Assembly (NCBI RefSeq): GCF_026571515.1
Contig: NW_026861373.1
Location: forward strand, 1-64,000
Source of the DNA: Ruditapes philippinarum
Taxonomy: Eukaryota
DNA: 64,000 nt
Direction of reading: 5' to 3'
The stretch's first letter is position 1. Each line of letters opens with the position of its first letter. The position numbers are program-made. This document shows positions 6,001-18,000 of this stretch, piece by piece.

Positions 6001-9000
6001 GAAGCACTCGTTATGACACATTGTCGCATTGCGTTATTGACAGATGTTGCCGAATGCGATGGGGAACCATGGGTTTGTGAAAATGGGATATGCAAACAAT
6101 CTTTAAACGAACATGTTTGCCAATGCAACCCAGGATTTGTGATTGATGGGGAAACTGGAAGATGTATAGGTACATAAAAAGGCTACTCCTATCAATTCTA
6201 TGCATTCATATTAGTAAGAGGGACTTAATAAACTTTAATTCTCTGTTGCATACACTGTATACTGAAAATGTTGCAAGCTTTTTTCACATTGTAGAAAAAG
6301 TATTTGAAATTCAAATCGTTATTGAAGTTAAAGAGTATCATTACATTCGAGTAATCAGTTAGTATTTCATAAATAGAAATAAAGTTAAATACTTTTAGTT
6401 ACGTCTTATTCGAACTGTATTGTACATATTTGAATGTTACACCTTGGCCAAAGAGGTGATTATGACTGCTTTTGTGTATGTAAACACAACAGCTTGTAAT
6501 ATTTTTTAATTAATGGTGTGCTCCCATAAACTAAAATTCATCTCTTATTTATATGTACTATTAATTGCTTAATATGTTGATTCTTTTAACCAGTAAGTTG
6601 TGTACGGTCAGTGATTTGTTTTCGCTTTACATGAATATTGACGAGTAAATTTCAATCTCAGGATCAGATGTGACCCCCCAAACAGAACCTTTAGCAACGG
6701 GAATCATCTTTGTTATTGTTACCTGTGTGATATTTGGTATGTATCATTCGCATTTACATTTTTTTTTTCGAACGTACTCATCAGATTCAGACAAGTGCTT
6801 TTAAAAGCATGTTCTACATTAAATTAAGAATTAAACCATTGATAGCAATTTAAAATATTTTTTGTATGATATGTAAAATTCAAATATGAATTCAAAAATA
6901 AAAAGAAAATATATGTCGACGTGTTGGTATATGTACAATTCCGTGCTAAACGTATATCTAAAAACTGTCAAAATAACCACAATTTCAAAAACAAACTTTT
7001 ATAATTTTTTATACTTTTCCAAAGCAATCAAAATATGGAAATTTCATGACCAGTTTCCACATTACTTTTTTGGCGAAATGATATAAAAAAAATTCCCTCA
7101 AATATGCGGAAATAAATATGTATGACAAAAAGTATAACCTGTCTTTCTTATTTCTGACTTGAAAAACAACAAATTTTGAAAAATGTTATTATTATTTTGG
7201 TGTTATTTTTTTAAACAGAGTATAAAATAAATATACAGTCATTAAAAAAAAAATAATCAGATATTGATTTATTATTTTTGTCAGGTTCACATTCTTAAAA
7301 AATTAAATGCTACATGTAAACTTCCAAAATCTAACAGGAAAATTATTGAAATGTATTACAGGAATATATATTTCATCATAAGAATGAATAACTCTATCCT
7401 TTGATTCTGTAAAAAAACAATAATCTGAACCCATTCGTTACAGAATGAGTTTTTCATGTTTCTTAACTCAGCAAAAATACAAAAATGCAAAAAAGAGAAA
7501 TCAATGTATAAATAAACATTAATTCTGCACATAAATGAAGATATCGAAAACTGTTTTCATACAATTTTCAATTTGTTTTATATATTAAAGGTAAAATTGT
7601 GAATTCAAAAAGACAAAGAAAAAATATATGTTGACATGATAGATTATTTGTAAACGGGCAGTTTCGATGTTTACCACATATGCTCACTGTCAAAACGACC
7701 GCGCTTTCTTTAGAAATAGTTGTGTTGTACACAATGCATTCAATTTGTTATATAACCCAAAAATGAGGAAATATAAATTATTTAGAATATTCATAACCCG
7801 TATATATATATATTATTTGTAAAAGTCACGACATAAGTCTTTTTCCATCAAACTGAATGATATATTGACAAAAAATAAACATTTAATGAGAATGAAAGTC
7901 CGGGTTGACTGAAGTGAAAAGAAATCAGAGAAAAGAACTTCATATTTTAATCTTTAAATTTTTAACGATTTCTAATTATTTTCAGTTTGTTTGATGACCA
8001 TTATAACTGTGTTTTGCACTCCAAAAAAATGCAAGTATAATATTATTTCTATATTTATTACATTTAAATATGCAATTCGGTTCTATTCGGCACTTAAAAC
8101 TGTACAAGGGGCGTAATAATTTAGAACTTTTCAATTATCTATGATCATGAAGAGATAAAAATGGACCAAGTCTTTAATTTACATATTTTTGTTGACAGAA
8201 ATGTACTTTATAATTGAATCAATTTTGCAGTTAATTCTTTAAGGGTTTTTAATTCTTAGCTTAGATTATCAACTGAAAGTACGTTATTTCCTTTATGTAT
8301 CAACTGACAAAGCTAATAAAGCGAAACATGTATTGATATCTAAATTTGTGTTAGTTTTGATATATTTATCCTATAATCAACTGGTACGCATTCTTACAAT
8401 GTATGCATATCAAAACCGTTGTTCTCAATTAAACGGCACACTTATTTGCAATGATTGTAGTCAATATCATGAAGCTTACATGTCTTGGTGATTTATGTGA
8501 TTCTTCTTTATAAAATTATTATTTGTACATGCTGGTAAATGTGCTACATCGTTTAAGAAATCATTTTAAACAGTTCGAAAACTTAAATCAATGTAAAGCT
8601 ATCAACCTATGATATAAATGTCACGTGTAATTGATTAAAACAATATTATTTGATTGTATAGAAAACTATATTTCAAAACAGGTAAACCATCGGGTGAATT
8701 AGAAGACGGAAACTCTTCTCAGCATGATATCTCTTCATCTGACACAGGTACTAATTTAATATGTTATTTAACATGTTGTTTACATTTGTAAAATATTTAT
8801 TCAAAGACTTGTTTTCTATCACAGATAATACTTAATTTCATTTCCCAAGAAAATTGATGACAAAGATGATTTCTATTTTATTTGGATTTTTTCTTTATAT
8901 AAATAAATAGTATAGACTTTCCGATCTACAATTTAAATTTCGCTAGATATTGGTTGGCTACTTATGAGATGCAACTGATATTTCACAAAAAAACAGATCC

Positions 9001-15000: not shown

Positions 15001-18000
15001 TTTTCTCATAGGTTATGGTAATAAGAACAACCCAAATGAAAAACATTCTGATAAATGTATCATAATCGGAGAGGACCCTTTTAATACAAGGTATAGGGAG
15101 GCCCTAGCAAGCTTGCATCAAAATGCAGAGGTGTACAAAAATGACATACAAGAACGAGGATTTGATACATCCTCTGTAGATCGGGGATATTATGATGTTG
15201 AAAACGAAAGGTTATTTAAATTTGATTGCTTTTTGGAAAAAGGTTCATCAGGTGCCCCAGTTATTACAAATGAAGTAAATTCACCAAAGGTGATAGGCTT
15301 ATTTATAGGTGGTAAGCCAGATTTTTTCTATGAATTGTCTGACATGCAACAAGCCGCGTTTGAAAGGAAATATTTATTTGAGGTTGGAGTAAAAATGAAT
15401 TGGATATACCAAAGAATGGAAAGGGAAGACCCGGACCTTGCTTCTGAAATATTTCCTACAAATTAAAAAATAACAGAACATGAAGTCTTGTTTCAGATAT
15501 TAAAAAAGAAACAATTTCATCAGATTTTTGAATTTGTATTCCAATAATAAATACATTCTTGTATGTCTTTATTATGATTTCTTTTCTATGTATTATTGTT
15601 TGATTTTATTAACCTTTCAATTGCATACTGATTACACGGTTAATGCACACAATATATTAATCTTCGATAAATGATCGTTTAACTTCGTGAGATGTACTCA
15701 GTAAGATTTGATTGAATTAAATTTGTTTCTATGAAATAGCTGTACTGACCGTTATAGCGCAATAGGGGAAACTACCGGTTTATATCTTCAAAATGTCCCA
15801 TCTGTTGTAAGATCTAGATCGCGTTTGTCTATGCTTTTTTATTTATATTCTCCACATTATTGAAAGTATGATTGTTTTTCTTTTTAATTTTTAATGTGTT
15901 TTGCACTTATTTTGGCAAAGACAATATACTTTTTAAATGGCATGGTTTAAGAATTTAAATTTAAATCAATAAAATTCAATACAAAACAAACAAATCTGTG
16001 TTTTTAAGTTGTTCCATATCCGTGTAGACTATTTTGCAAGCCCTAGTCATTAAAACATACTTCAAGAATCAAGAATAGTGTGAATTATCAAAACATTTGT
16101 CATATACTACAAATTTATTCTCGTAATCTATATGGACAGAACCAAAGTGGTATCGAATATTTAGATGTGTGCTTTAATGTTATCATAATTGACAGGTCAA
16201 TAAAAGCAGACTATACCGAAGCAAAATGATATTTAAACTCTTGTTTTAGATTTATAAAATATGAGGATTTAAAGTATTCGACACTTTTATCATTTTCATA
16301 AATGACATAAAAATCAGTCAAAAATATTTCATGATTTTATGTAAGTTCTATGAAGTCAAGGGATACAATTATTCCGTTAAACATTCGCTTCAATAACAAA
16401 TAATAGGCAATTTTCAATCATTATCGTCATCATGGCAGCATCGGCGATGATGACGACAAAAAGCACAACAACAATTTGATAATTTGATACAACAACATAC
16501 ATGCATACATAAAGGTTGTTAATACATGCTCCATACCATAAACATTCATTTTATACTGTGCTTACAAAATGATAATAAAACTATTTCATTTATTTTTTAG
16601 AGTAAAAATCAGATTAAGTCTTCAAACCTCGATTAAATTGGTGTAAATTGATTTTAAAAAAATACATTTTGAAGTACTTTTTTTTACGGTAATCATTAAC
16701 ATTTTAAATTTTAACCTTTTCTGAGCCCGAATTTAACTTTGAAGTAAGGAAAGGCCACCACCTTTATCACAAAATAACATTTTCCCTGAAAAAAAATGAA
16801 ATTAATTTTTAGGTTTTTCCTTTTTCCGCAGGTAATTACGGTCAAAAATCAATGGGTAAAATTGCTTAACCGCCCCCCCCCAAAGAAAAAGAAAAAAAAG
16901 AAGACAAAGGGTTTTGGGTTAGGTATGATTAAGCATTTGAAAATATAATTTAAAATAATTCAATTTTAAAAATAAACCAACTTTTTAATTAGTACTTTTC
17001 AAAAATTAGTTAGCAATCCACGTAAGTTAAAAAAATATATTTCCCATTTTAACCCTTCAATTAGGGGTGATTTGTCCTTTTCTGTTTTTGTTTAAAAGAA
17101 AAAAATTTTTAAAAAAGGGGGGGGGGAAAAATTTAGAAAAAAATTTAGATTTGGAATAAAAAGGGGGGCCGGGGCCCCGTTATTAAGGTTCGGGACTGCA
17201 TTGGTGTTTTGCCCCCGGGAACCCCCCCAACCATAAGAGGAAAATTATTAAAATAGGGTAAAAAGGGCCCCGGTGAAAATTTTAAAAATAAAAGGCGGGG
17301 GGGAACAAAAAAAAATTTTTACCCGGGGGGTTTTTAAAAAAAATTTTCATAAATAAAACTTCGCCCCGCGTTCCCGCTAATAAGCGGTTCTTCGCCCCGC
17401 CACCTCGCCAAGCGAAAAGTCGAGAATGAACAAGTTAAAATAGCAGGGGGGCGAAGCGAAACCCGCTTAATAGCGATATCGCAAATAAGCGGGTTTTCGA
17501 TTCGCGCCCCGCCATTTATTTTTTAAATCAGCCATTATAGTCATTTTACAAATTGCGCATGCGCGAAAAAATACTACTTCCGGTCATTTTTTTTCATAGC
17601 AACGGACCGCGTCGTAAAAAGGTCTATACTAAAATTATTCAACCGTTGTTTGATTATTGGGGAAATCGTATTTTATTTTATGAAGGCGTATTTTATCATG
17701 TCTTATTAACATTTTATAAGATAACTTGATGATATTAAATCAATATTATTTTACGACTAGATAGATGAAACATCCAGCTTTTCACAGGTATGGATTAAAT
17801 GAAATATAAAAAACAAGATCAACAAGGAACGCCGTTTAATGAAAACAACTAACCCAGCAACGCAGGACCACCGGCAACGTGAAAATCGTATGAATTACAT
17901 ATACGTTCTGGTTGATACCTCTGTCATATTAAGAAACTTTCTAATCGACTACATGTACATTCTATCGCAGGTGTGATTAATATAGTGTGACTTTAAACAA

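What the first reader, a model, noticed from the sequence alone, without database searches (positions are those of the whole stretch)
6662..15466. Same sensor, different effector: A and B are near-identical up to the EGF exon and then diverge sharply
Seen: exons and even introns align from exon 1 to just past exon 7, and the EGF exon is still close. The TM, linker and protease are only distantly similar and their introns do not align. Junctions from exon 7 onward in A are all phase 1. Inference: a recent gene conversion or exon shuffle grafted one ectodomain onto two old protease tails, giving mix-and-match sensor/effector modules. Sequences around the nucleophile differ (FLEKGSSG, FMGQGLSG, YMAKRLSG), which suggests different substrates.
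Basis: partly seen in the sequence, partly recalled or inferred. Interest (0 to 1): 0.7.

Follow-up and report, generated by a model that had tools for sequence, protein, structure and literature searches.

The report
Half-homogenised tandem receptor-protease gene pair
Two neighbouring genes for a membrane protein with an inner protease domain share a recently homogenised front half but keep old, very different back halves, a familiar pattern of partial gene conversion between tandem duplicates.

Summary
Gene A (346-15466, + strand) and gene B (35436-48381) align, introns included, from the window's first bases to about 120-200 nt past the seventh ectodomain exon (A ~5540-5620 / B ~39170-39245). 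After that only the EGF exon is similar, and no intron aligns. Synonymous divergence is about 0.28 in the ectodomain exons and about 1.1 in the TM-to-protease exons (Fisher p=2e-12). Amino-acid identity drops from 82% to 39%.

"Near-identical" overstates it. The shared block has two age layers, with non-coding p-distance 0.10 before A 1050 and 0.22 from 2082 to 5540. Silent sites put the break before the EGF exon, not after it.

Both genes keep old but homologous EGF, TM, juxtamembrane and protease exons with identical phase-1 junctions. This looks like repeated non-allelic recombination overwriting the 5' part of two old tandem paralogues. It does not look like one graft that created new module combinations.

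The "different substrates" and "sensor/effector" claims are untested. The pattern is a known kind (partial concerted evolution, as in vertebrate paired receptors). The predicted architecture, a type I membrane protein with a cytoplasmic trypsin-like protease, is unusual but rests on exon models without transcript evidence.

The parts
15..5620 (+). Shared 5' block of gene A (upstream region, exons 1-7 and their introns), homologous to B 35097-39245
   Evidence: blastn; MAFFT identity profile; a permissive alignment fades out at A 5621 / B 39245. The 5' limit is unknown because homology reaches the window edge.
346..402 (+). A exon 1: start codon plus a hydrophobic, signal-peptide-like 19 codons; phase-0 donor
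   Evidence: B equivalent is 35436-35492, whose donor is weaker (GTT instead of GTA).
469..570 (+). Doubtful optional in-frame exon (phase 0/0) in A; B equivalent 35559-35660
   Evidence: dN/dS is about 1.2 from only 6 changes, so it may be intronic.
1085..2081 (+). A-specific ~1 kb insertion in intron 1, holding a 20-bp-unit microsatellite and a 156-bp tandem array (1245-1920). It separates the young stratum from the older one.
2099..2257 (+). A ectodomain exon Eb (phase 0/0); B 36222-36380
   Evidence: dS 0.28
3041..3341 (+). A ectodomain exon Ec, Cys-rich (phase 0/1); B 36798-37092, with one 6-nt in-frame indel
   Evidence: dS 0.18, dN/dS 0.79
4189..4533 (+). A ectodomain exon Ed, Cys-rich (phase 1/1); B 37787-38131; the best-conserved exon (89% aa)
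   Evidence: no Pfam family; no Atlas hit
4722..4800 (+). A ectodomain exon Ee (phase 1/2); B 38341-38419
5160..5288 (+). Frame-neutral candidate cassette exon Ef (phase 2/2) in A. B has lost the corresponding donor.
   Evidence: Three A/B indels here of 12, 6 and 9 nt are all multiples of 3.
5355..5419 (+). A exon Eg ('exon 7', phase 2/1); B 38991-39049. It is the last exon inside the homogenised block.
   Evidence: the silent-site break point falls at its 3' end
5540..5620 (+). Zone where A/B intron similarity fades: the 3' boundary of the homogenised tract (B ~39170-39245)
6044..6169 (+). A EGF exon (phase 1/1); B 40483-40602, two codons shorter at its 5' end
   Evidence: Pfam EGF-type matches are just below cut-off. 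The six-Cys pattern occurs only twice in the window. 74% aa identity but dS 0.74.
6662..6736 (+). A transmembrane exon (phase 1/1); B 41590-41676; 35% aa identity
   Evidence: hydrophobicity
8682..8747 (+). A juxtamembrane exon (phase 1/1, 66 nt); B 43449-43514 (66 nt); 33% aa identity in the codon alignment
14079..14276 (+). A protease exon carrying the catalytic His (codon 14252-14254), phase 1/1; B 47205-47396; C 21991-22167
14760..15466 (+). A last exon with the catalytic Asp (14897-14899), the nucleophile Ser (15248-15250) and the stop codon; B 47684-48381; C 22478-23151
   Evidence: Pfam Trypsin_2 E=1.4e-3 (A), 5.8e-4 (B) and 0.069 (C), all below cut-off.
35097..48381 (+). Gene B: the same exon architecture as A, with a homogenised 5' part and an old tail
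21991..23151 (+). Gene C: a third protease tail (His exon plus last exon) with no detectable ecto, EGF or TM exons upstream
52340..52660 (+). Decayed copy of B's His exon and its flanking intron. It has frameshifts, and the His codon has changed to a Tyr codon.
26121..28705 (+). Block D, collinear with E (50193-51623), on the far side of the divergent core. Its divergence matches the older 5' stratum. It spans the N run, which was left untouched.
   Evidence: p=0.193, JC 0.223
39583..40167 (+). B-specific repeat insertion (microsatellite-type coding-like repeat plus a 167-bp tandem duplication) in intron Eg-EGF, just beyond the tract boundary

Best explanation
A and B are two old tandem paralogues of one gene family. 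The predicted protein is a type I membrane protein. It has a signal peptide, a Cys-rich ectodomain of no known family, one EGF module, one transmembrane helix, a short juxtamembrane linker, and a cytoplasmic chymotrypsin-fold (Trypsin_2-like) serine protease with His, Asp and Ser in place.

Long after the original duplication (tail dS about 1.1), non-allelic homologous recombination overwrote the 5' part of one copy with the other. The mechanism was gene conversion, unequal crossing-over, or both. It happened at least twice. An older event covered at least A 2082-5540. A younger one covered at least A 15-1050. The older event ended in the intron before the EGF exon. The tails, with all their introns, stayed old.

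The tract ends lie next to copy-specific repeat insertions (A 1085-2081; B 39291-40167). Such heterologies plausibly stop heteroduplex extension.

Shown: the age contrast, the two strata, conserved exon architecture and phases, in-frame-only exonic indels, and intact catalytic residues. Inferred: the recombination mechanism, the role of the insertions, the membrane topology, and any function. The most likely working mode is that ligand-driven clustering of the ectodomain activates the cytoplasmic protease, which then cleaves cytosolic targets or its own linker. This is an inference from architecture only.
For: Collinear DNA similarity includes the introns up to A ~5540-5620 and is absent beyond, apart from the EGF exon.

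Per-exon NG86 dS values are: E1 0, Eb 0.28, Ec 0.18, Ed 0.42, Ee 0.37, Eg 0.29, EGF 0.74, His 0.98, Last 1.38. Pooled dS is 0.276 against 1.08. Fisher gives 45/196 against 121/212, p=2e-12.

The silent-site break point lies at the end of Eg (0/2000 permutations). The two strata inside the block have non-coding p 0.099 and 0.218 (0/1000). E1+E2q silent changes are 1/30 against 45/185 in the later exons, p=0.007.

Old homology of the tails: EGF, TM, JM, His and Last exons are in the same order with the same phase-1 junctions in A and B. The A/B tail is closer than A/C or B/C (pS 0.61 against 0.73 and 0.80; p=0.025 and 1e-4).

Both copies are constrained. 5 of 5 exonic indels are multiples of 3, against 7 of 52 non-coding indels. 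Ectodomain dN/dS is about 0.33. His, Asp and Ser are invariant in A, B and C.

Ongoing partial duplication at the locus is shown by a decayed copy of B's His exon, 70% identical to B and about 49% to A and C.

Literature: duplicates under gene conversion can show high divergence in some regions and low divergence in others (PMC3924837, passages). Regions called as converted can be composites of overlapping events, and single tracts are mostly 50 to several hundred bp (PMC3924818, passages).
Against: There is no outgroup or second species. Concerted evolution is therefore inferred from divergence heterogeneity alone, and the direction of transfer is unknown.

The older stratum is fairly uniform over ~3.5 kb; a second-level break is not significant in non-coding sites (334/1000). 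That is long for one conversion tract according to PMC3924818, so a single unequal crossover or partial duplication may fit that layer better.

Block D/E, beyond the tails, has the same divergence as the older stratum (JC 0.22). A purely 5'-initiated conversion model does not predict this.

The low divergence of the first kb could partly reflect regulatory constraint. dS above 1 is near saturation and imprecise. EGF, TM and JM have few sites (21, 18 and 14 synonymous sites).

The exon models have no transcript support. B has a weak exon-1 donor and lacks the Ef donor.

Protease family assignment is weak. All Pfam hits are below cut-off, the best PDB profile hit has E=0.16, and the structure models were of low confidence.
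Confidence: 0.62

Rival explanations
1. One-off chimera. A single unequal crossover or partial segmental duplication of 5.6 kb or more (promoter plus exons 1-7) placed one gene's front end on another old paralogue's EGF-TM-protease tail. The lower divergence of the first kb would reflect promoter and first-intron constraint, not a second event.
For: The older stratum is uniform over ~3.5 kb. Typical conversion tracts are much shorter (PMC3924818 passages). All junctions after exon 7 are phase 1, so any such join stays in frame. The locus shows other partial duplications (relic His exon).
Against: Silent exon sites also show the younger layer (1/30 against 45/185, p=0.007). The non-coding break at A ~1033 is strong (0/1000). 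A simple unequal crossover predicts a third gene sharing the tail of A or B at the young divergence. Inside the window, the only tail-like copy is the relic downstream of B, on the wrong side for that model. A partner upstream of the window cannot be excluded.
Confidence: 0.2
2. Whole-unit duplication followed by core replacement. A ~35 kb unit (gene plus downstream block D) duplicated at the age of the older stratum. Later the EGF-to-protease core of one copy was replaced from a distant paralogue.
For: Blocks D/E on the far side of the tails are collinear and have the same divergence (p=0.193, JC 0.223) as the older 5' stratum (p about 0.16-0.22). Young sequence therefore flanks the old core on both sides.
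Against: D/E could be two copies of one mobile element. The cores differ greatly in length and content; unit 1 also holds gene C. No donor paralogue is visible in the window. A/B tails are each other's closest relatives here, which fits an old local duplication more simply.
Confidence: 0.1
3. Uniform-age duplication with very fast evolution of the tail under positive or relaxed selection.
For: dN is high in the tail (0.52) and TM/JM dN/dS is above 1, from few sites.
Against: Introns and silent sites are not affected by protein-level selection, yet four tail introns are 0% alignable while 5' introns are 76-91% identical. Silent divergence differs four-fold. Protease-exon dN/dS of 0.36-0.52 shows constraint.
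Confidence: 0.02
4. Assembly artefact: haplotigs or a chimeric scaffold joined across the N run place two alleles or unlinked genes in false tandem.
For: A 780-N run (27204-27983) lies between A/C and B.
Against: Even the most similar part differs by about 10% and the tails by more than 60% in protein, far beyond allelic variation. Block D keeps the same order and orientation as the ungapped block E on both sides of the N run, which supports the join.
Confidence: 0.03

Closest known systems
Vertebrate paired receptors kept alike by 5' gene conversion (e.g. SIGLEC11/SIGLEC16; also Siglec-5/-14)
   Same: Neighbouring paralogues whose extracellular-domain-coding part is extremely similar through gene conversion, while the TM and cytoplasmic parts differ (PMC5701461 and PMC4042635, search listing and start of abstracts only). 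This is the established form of 'same sensor, different effector'.
   Different: There the tails are short signalling motifs or adaptor-binding TM segments with opposite signs. Here both tails are full protease domains with intact catalytic residues. The organism appears to be a mollusc. The ectodomain is not an Ig lectin and matches no known family. Ectodomain identity here is only about 82%.
Partial concerted evolution of tandem duplicates with a region of high divergence (red/green opsins; theory of Teshima and Innan)
   Same: Divergence is high in one region of the duplicates and low elsewhere under ongoing gene conversion (PMC3924837, passages of section 3.2).
   Different: In the opsin case the peak is narrow and the flanking introns stay similar. 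Here the whole 9-10 kb tail, with all its introns, is old. Whether selection keeps it divergent is untested.
Human gamma-globin genes HBG1/HBG2 (5' conversion bounded by a simple repeat in an intron)
   Same: A 5' homogenised part and a diverged 3' part, with the boundary inside an intron next to repetitive sequence. This example is recalled from memory and was not checked in any call.
   Different: A different gene family and scale. Here there are two strata and much deeper 3' divergence.
Trypsin_2 / S1B-like chymotrypsin-fold serine proteases (nearest solved: Staphylococcus aureus serine protease 2as9)
   Same: His-Asp-Ser order, a small-x-Ser-Gly nucleophile motif, and weak profile similarity.
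   Different: All matches are below family cut-offs. The domain sits after a TM helix at the C-terminus of a predicted type I membrane protein and has a long insertion between Asp and Ser.
Type II transmembrane serine proteases (hepsin, matriptase type). Architecture recalled, not checked in a call.
   Same: Membrane-anchored proteins with a C-terminal serine protease domain and extracellular modules.
   Different: Opposite predicted topology: here a signal peptide and ecto modules precede the TM helix, so the protease would be cytoplasmic. The protease is not of the classical trypsin subfamily by Pfam.

Membership tests
Interlocus gene conversion / partial concerted evolution of tandem paralogues | Paralogues in cis with collinear similarity that includes non-coding sequence over only part of their length | tested here: met
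Interlocus gene conversion / partial concerted evolution of tandem paralogues | Statistically significant heterogeneity of silent divergence with a localised break point | tested here: met
   Fisher p=2e-12; max chi-square 0/2000 and 0/1000
Interlocus gene conversion / partial concerted evolution of tandem paralogues | Tree incongruence: the converted part groups paralogues within a species, while the unconverted part groups orthologues across species | not testable with these tools
Interlocus gene conversion / partial concerted evolution of tandem paralogues | Tract lengths typical of conversion (tens to hundreds of bp per event) | tested here: inconclusive
   The blocks are at least 1 kb and at least 3.5 kb. 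They could be composites of many tracts or a crossover product (PMC3924818 passages).
Chymotrypsin-fold serine protease (Pfam Trypsin_2, PF13365) | Profile match above the curated cut-off (27.6 bits) | tested here: not met
   19.8, 21.0 and 14.3 bits for the last exons of A, B and C. Only single exons were scanned, because the joined domain was left out by instruction.
Chymotrypsin-fold serine protease (Pfam Trypsin_2, PF13365) | Catalytic His, Asp and Ser in that order within conserved local motifs | tested here: met
   All three are invariant in A, B and C. C has Arg in place of the Gly two residues before the Ser.
Chymotrypsin-fold serine protease (Pfam Trypsin_2, PF13365) | Double beta-barrel fold | tested here: inconclusive
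   AlphaFold2 on the last-exon alignment gave mean pLDDT 41.5. No fold search was run on it.
EGF-like domain | Six-cysteine spacing and a profile match | tested here: met
   The Cys pattern is found in exactly two ORFs of the window, the A and B EGF exons. Pfam EGF scores 21.3 bits against a 21.5 cut-off, and EGF_3 has E=4.2e-5, so the profile matches are marginally below cut-off.
Exon-shuffling module (symmetric phase 1-1 exons) | Module exons flanked by phase-1 introns on both sides | tested here: met
   The EGF, TM, JM and His exons of A and B are all phase 1/1.
Exon-shuffling module (symmetric phase 1-1 exons) | The same module found joined to unrelated partners in other genes | not tested
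   This needs other family members. Within the window, gene C has the tail without detectable ecto, EGF or TM exons, which is only suggestive.
Paired receptors (same ectodomain, opposite signalling tails) | Ectodomains bind the same ligand and tails signal differently | not testable with these tools
   No functional data. The ectodomains differ at about 18% of residues, and both tails look catalytically competent.
Type II transmembrane serine proteases | N-terminal signal anchor with an extracellular C-terminal classical trypsin domain | tested here: not met
   A hydrophobic N-terminal exon plus a second TM after the EGF exon predicts a cytoplasmic protease. Pfam gives Trypsin_2, not the classical Trypsin family.

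The most novel reading that the evidence does not exclude
The locus belongs to an undescribed molluscan family of type I receptor-proteases, in which a cytoplasmic chymotrypsin-fold protease is wired directly to a Cys-rich/EGF ectodomain. In this family, front ends and protease tails would be truly exchangeable cassettes. The overwritten front end of A or B may originally have been a different ectodomain type. The tail-only unit C, 6.5 kb downstream of A and joinable in phase 1, may serve as an alternative 3' module for A's ectodomain exons. That would give combinatorial sensor/effector pairs by recombination and by splicing.
Probability: 0.12. Interest if true: 0.7.

Novelty: new member of a known kind. 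Interest (0 to 1): 0.38.

Why it matters
The mosaic is a clean, quantifiable example of partial homogenisation between tandem paralogues. It has two age layers and tract ends next to copy-specific repeat insertions. That makes it useful for studying how heterologies limit non-allelic recombination in a repeat-rich invertebrate genome.

If the exon models hold, the genes encode a receptor-like membrane protein with its own cytoplasmic serine protease. Two literature searches found no description of that architecture. The only family-level lead is a cluster of 61 hypothetical molluscan proteins.

A shared ectodomain with two very different protease tails would then be an invertebrate analogue of vertebrate paired receptors. 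As an evolutionary pattern, however, it is ordinary.

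Tried and rejected
1. Structure prediction of the protease last exon (3-sequence alignment) gave mean pLDDT 41.5. The best-conserved ectodomain exon (2-sequence alignment) gave 37.7. Both are too poor to use, so no fold search was run.

2. The Atlas look-up of ectodomain exon Ed gave no usable hit. The look-up of the protease exon gave a molluscan hypothetical-protein cluster and Trypsin_2-type clusters, which is a lead only.

3. PDB sequence and profile searches gave one marginal hit, 2as9, at E=0.48 and 0.16.

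4. I looked for further linker exons between the juxtamembrane and His exons by cross-comparing A, B and C ORFs and by a splice-site/phase scan. Only the 66-nt juxtamembrane exon is shared. A 11719-11787 and B 44717-44890 are unsupported single-gene candidates.

5. The A 12966-13373 / B 42526-42948 similarity was rejected as orthologous intron. It lies in non-corresponding introns and hits several frames.

6. The search for ecto, EGF or TM exons upstream of C found no EGF pattern and no TM-like ORF. 0 of 74 phase-1/1 candidate exons were TM-like.

7. Literature searches for the architecture and a first gene-conversion query returned nothing relevant.

8. Not done: any search, scan or fold of a joined (spliced) protein. 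Every exon was handled on its own and only numerical counts were pooled. No orthologues, no other paralogues, no phylogeny and no GARD/GENECONV run were therefore possible. Nothing in the window looked human. The N run was not touched.

Full report
**Setting.** The window is 30% G+C with one run of 780 N at 27204-27983. That run was left alone. Nothing suggests human sequence. The only taxonomic lead is that the Atlas cluster nearest to the protease exon is a set of 61 hypothetical proteins recorded from Mollusca. All evolutionary inference therefore rests on the copies inside the window.

**What is there.** A self-comparison shows two collinear + strand genes, A (start codon 346, stop 15466) and B (35436-48381). 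I built the exon models from open frames, conserved AG/GT sites and phase consistency in both copies.
- A: exon 1 346-402 (hydrophobic, signal-peptide-like); a doubtful optional ORF 469-570; Eb 2099-2257; Ec 3041-3341; Ed 4189-4533; Ee 4722-4800; a frame-neutral candidate cassette Ef 5160-5288; Eg 5355-5419; EGF 6044-6169; TM 6662-6736; juxtamembrane JM 8682-8747; His exon 14079-14276; last exon 14760-15466.
- B has the same chain: 35436-35492, 35559-35660, 36222-36380, 36798-37092, 37787-38131, 38341-38419, 38991-39049, 40483-40602, 41590-41676, 43449-43514, 47205-47396, 47684-48381.
- The finding's coordinates run exactly from the first base of A's TM exon to A's stop codon.
- The models are supported by the indel pattern. 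5 of 5 A/B indels inside exons are multiples of three, against 7 of 52 in non-coding sequence.
- There is no transcript evidence.

**The encoded protein.**
- The EGF exon matches EGF-type Pfam models just under their cut-offs. The six-cysteine pattern occurs in exactly two ORFs of the window, the A and B EGF exons.
- The ectodomain exons match no Pfam family. Exon Ed gave no Atlas hit.
- The last exons of A, B and a third gene C hit only Pfam Trypsin_2, at E=1.4e-3, 5.8e-4 and 0.069. All are below the 27.6-bit cut-off.
- The best solved relative is a Staphylococcus aureus serine protease, 2as9, at E=0.48 for the single sequence and 0.16 for the profile.
- The catalytic His (A 14252-14254), Asp (14897-14899) and Ser (15248-15250) are invariant in A, B and C.
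- Both AlphaFold2 attempts on single exons were of low confidence (pLDDT 41.5 and 37.7), so I ran no fold search.
- By instruction I searched, scanned and folded exon by exon only. The joined spliced protein was never made or searched, which is one reason the protease matches stay below cut-off.
- Taken together, the architecture is a predicted type I membrane protein with a cytoplasmic chymotrypsin-fold protease. The topology is inferred.

**Checking the observation.**
- DNA similarity between A and B runs from window position 15 (B 35097) to A 5489 in four blocks of 77-87% identity.
- A global alignment shows 86-96% identity per 100 columns for A 93-1050 and mostly 76-93% for A 2085-5500, then noise.
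- With permissive scoring the similarity fades at A 5621 / B 39245, 120-200 nt into the intron after Eg.
- The upstream region and the first five introns are blast-alignable over 39-100% of their length, with JC distances 0.105, 0.099, 0.133, 0.151, 0.285 and 0.232.
- Introns Eg-EGF, EGF-TM, TM-JM and JM-His are 0% alignable. Intron His-Last aligns over 42 bases only.
- The one other hit, A 12966-13373 with B 42526-42948, lies in non-corresponding introns (JM-His in A, TM-JM in B) and matches in several frames. It is a dispersed repeat.
- The EGF exon is an island: 82% nt and 74% aa identity, with unalignable introns on both sides.

**Divergence by exon (Nei-Gojobori).**
- dS: E1 0; the doubtful ORF 0.05; Eb 0.28; Ec 0.18; Ed 0.42; Ee 0.37; Eg 0.29; EGF 0.74; TM 0.61; JM 0.31 (14 sites only); His 0.98; Last 1.38.
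- Pooled by adding per-exon counts, the ectodomain exons give dS 0.276 and dN 0.090. The TM-to-end exons give dS 1.08 and dN 0.52.
- Silent differences are 45 of 196 sites against 121 of 212 (Fisher p=2e-12).
- Protein identity is about 82% before and 39% after the best protein-level break, which falls at the very end of the EGF exon.
- Among codons that keep the same amino acid, the best break is at the 3' end of exon Eg: 14% silent changes before (n=256) and 36% after (n=160). 0 of 2000 permutations reach this.
- EGF silent divergence (10 of 21 sites) differs from the ectodomain (p=0.03) but not from the tail (p=0.49).
- The recombination boundary is therefore most likely in the intron before the EGF exon. 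The EGF exon looks 'still close' because it is constrained (dN/dS 0.17). With 21 sites, this point is suggestive only.

**A second layer.** Inside the shared block, non-coding p-distance is 0.099 for A 15-1033 and 0.218 for A 2082-5540 (max chi-square 60.1; 0 of 1000 permutations). Silent exon sites agree, with 1 of 30 against 45 of 185 (p=0.007). The two layers are separated by an A-specific ~1 kb insertion (1085-2081). It holds a microsatellite and a 156-bp tandem array. Just beyond the 3' boundary, B carries its own repeat insertions (39291-39398, 39583-40167, with a 167-bp tandem duplication). Tract ends next to heterologies are what one expects if insertions block heteroduplex extension. 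This is an inference.

**The tails are old but homologous.** A and B tail exons are collinear, have the same phases and share a 66-nt juxtamembrane exon. Their protease exons are significantly closer to each other (pS 0.61) than to C (0.73 and 0.80; p=0.025 and 1e-4). A/C and B/C are saturated. Both genes were thus already complete EGF-TM-protease genes long before the 5' homogenisation. The event overwrote a front end and did not assemble a new architecture. What that front end was before cannot be known from this window.

**Wider locus.**
- C (His exon 21991-22167, last exon 22478-23151) is an intact third tail with the same two-exon structure. It shows no detectable EGF pattern or TM-like ORF in the 6.5 kb upstream. 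0 of 74 phase-1/1 candidate exons there are TM-like.
- In C the Gly two residues before the nucleophile is Arg.
- A decayed copy of B's His exon with flanking intron lies at 52340-52660. It is 70% identical to B and about 49% to A and C. It has frameshifts, and its His codon has changed.
- A collinear block D (26121-28705) downstream of C matches block E (50193-51623) downstream of B, at p=0.193 and JC 0.223. That is the same divergence as the older 5' layer, so young sequence flanks the old core on both sides.
- D keeps E's order and orientation on both sides of the N run, which supports the scaffold join.

**Interpretation.** A uniform-age duplication with fast tail evolution is excluded by the introns and silent sites. 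An allelic or haplotig artefact is excluded by the 10% minimum divergence and the deep tail divergence. What remains is non-allelic homologous recombination between old tandem paralogues.

I favour repeated exchange (gene conversion and/or unequal crossing-over, at least two episodes). There are two significant layers, and regions called as converted are often composites of overlapping events (PMC3924818, passages). That review gives typical single tracts as 50 to several hundred bp. The uniform ~3.5 kb older layer may therefore be a crossover or partial-duplication product instead. The matching D/E divergence keeps a 'whole unit duplicated, core later replaced' model alive. These variants cannot be separated without sequence outside the window.

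**Comparison with what is known.** High divergence in one region and low divergence elsewhere is a described outcome for duplicates under gene conversion (PMC3924837, section 3.2 passages). Another paper mentions 'islands of divergence' (PMC3728101, search listing and start of abstract only). The functional analogy is to vertebrate paired receptors. [quoted passage not shown] The gamma-globin 5' conversion example is recalled from memory. The tandem-repeat-bearing insertions also resemble bivalve repeat-containing mobile elements; that too is recalled from memory.

What is unusual here is the tail, a full protease domain in place of a short signalling motif. Two literature searches found no description of a type I EGF-bearing membrane protein with a cytoplasmic trypsin-like protease. 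That is a narrow search and not proof of novelty.

**Function.** The 'sensor/effector' wording and the 'different substrates' inference are untested. The three nucleophile motifs differ, but the residue six positions before the Ser is aromatic in all three. I had no usable structure to judge the specificity pocket. My best guess is that ectodomain clustering activates the cytoplasmic protease. This rests on architecture alone.

**Verdict.** There are at least two events, the boundary lies before the EGF exon by silent sites, and the process was homogenisation of a homologous front end and not mix-and-match. This is a good new example of a known phenomenon, in a gene family that deserves a transcript-level look.

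Noticed in passing
window 21991-23151 (+): A third, intact protease tail (gene C) with the same His-exon/last-exon structure and phase-1 junctions, but no detectable ectodomain, EGF or TM exons in the 6.5 kb upstream. The Gly two residues before its nucleophile Ser is replaced by Arg. It could be a tail-only gene, an alternative 3' module of A, or a partial duplicate.
   Followed up: partly
window 52340-52660 (+): Decayed copy of gene B's His exon plus flanking intron (70% identical to B). It has frameshifts and the catalytic His codon has changed. No matching last exon was found.
   Followed up: yes
window 26121-28705 and 50193-51623 (+): Collinear non-coding blocks D and E downstream of genes C and B, p=0.193 apart, the same divergence as the older 5' layer of A/B. 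D spans the N run and keeps E's order on both sides. It is either part of an old repeat unit of the array or a mobile element.
   Followed up: partly
window 1085-2081 and 39583-40167: Copy-specific insertions of one repeat type (a microsatellite with a C/G-rich 4-nt-like unit, followed by ~156-167-bp tandem units), sitting at or near the ends of the homogenised tracts. They resemble tandem-repeat-bearing mobile elements described in bivalves (recalled, not checked).
   Followed up: partly
window 5160-5288 vs 38770-38920: Candidate cassette exon Ef: well formed in A (phase 2/2, consensus donor). B's frame is still open with three in-frame indels, but the corresponding donor is lost.
   Followed up: partly
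window 12966-13373 and 42526-42948: A 74% similar ~420-bp repeat in non-corresponding introns of A and B, probably a mobile element. Other short dispersed repeats are 17391-17473 / 45875-45958 (inverted) and 39291-39398 / 44429-44535.
   Followed up: partly
window 57959-59512: Large AT-rich minisatellite region (units of 21, 42, 105 and 147 bp) with an inverted portion at 59230-59512.
   Followed up: no
window 30292-31260: The most G+C-rich patch of the window (0.38) carries overlapping ORFs of 90-150 codons on both strands. Not examined.
   Followed up: no
window 35493 (B exon 1 donor): B's exon-1 donor has T at intron position +3 where A has A. This is a weaker site that may affect B's splicing or expression.
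   Followed up: no
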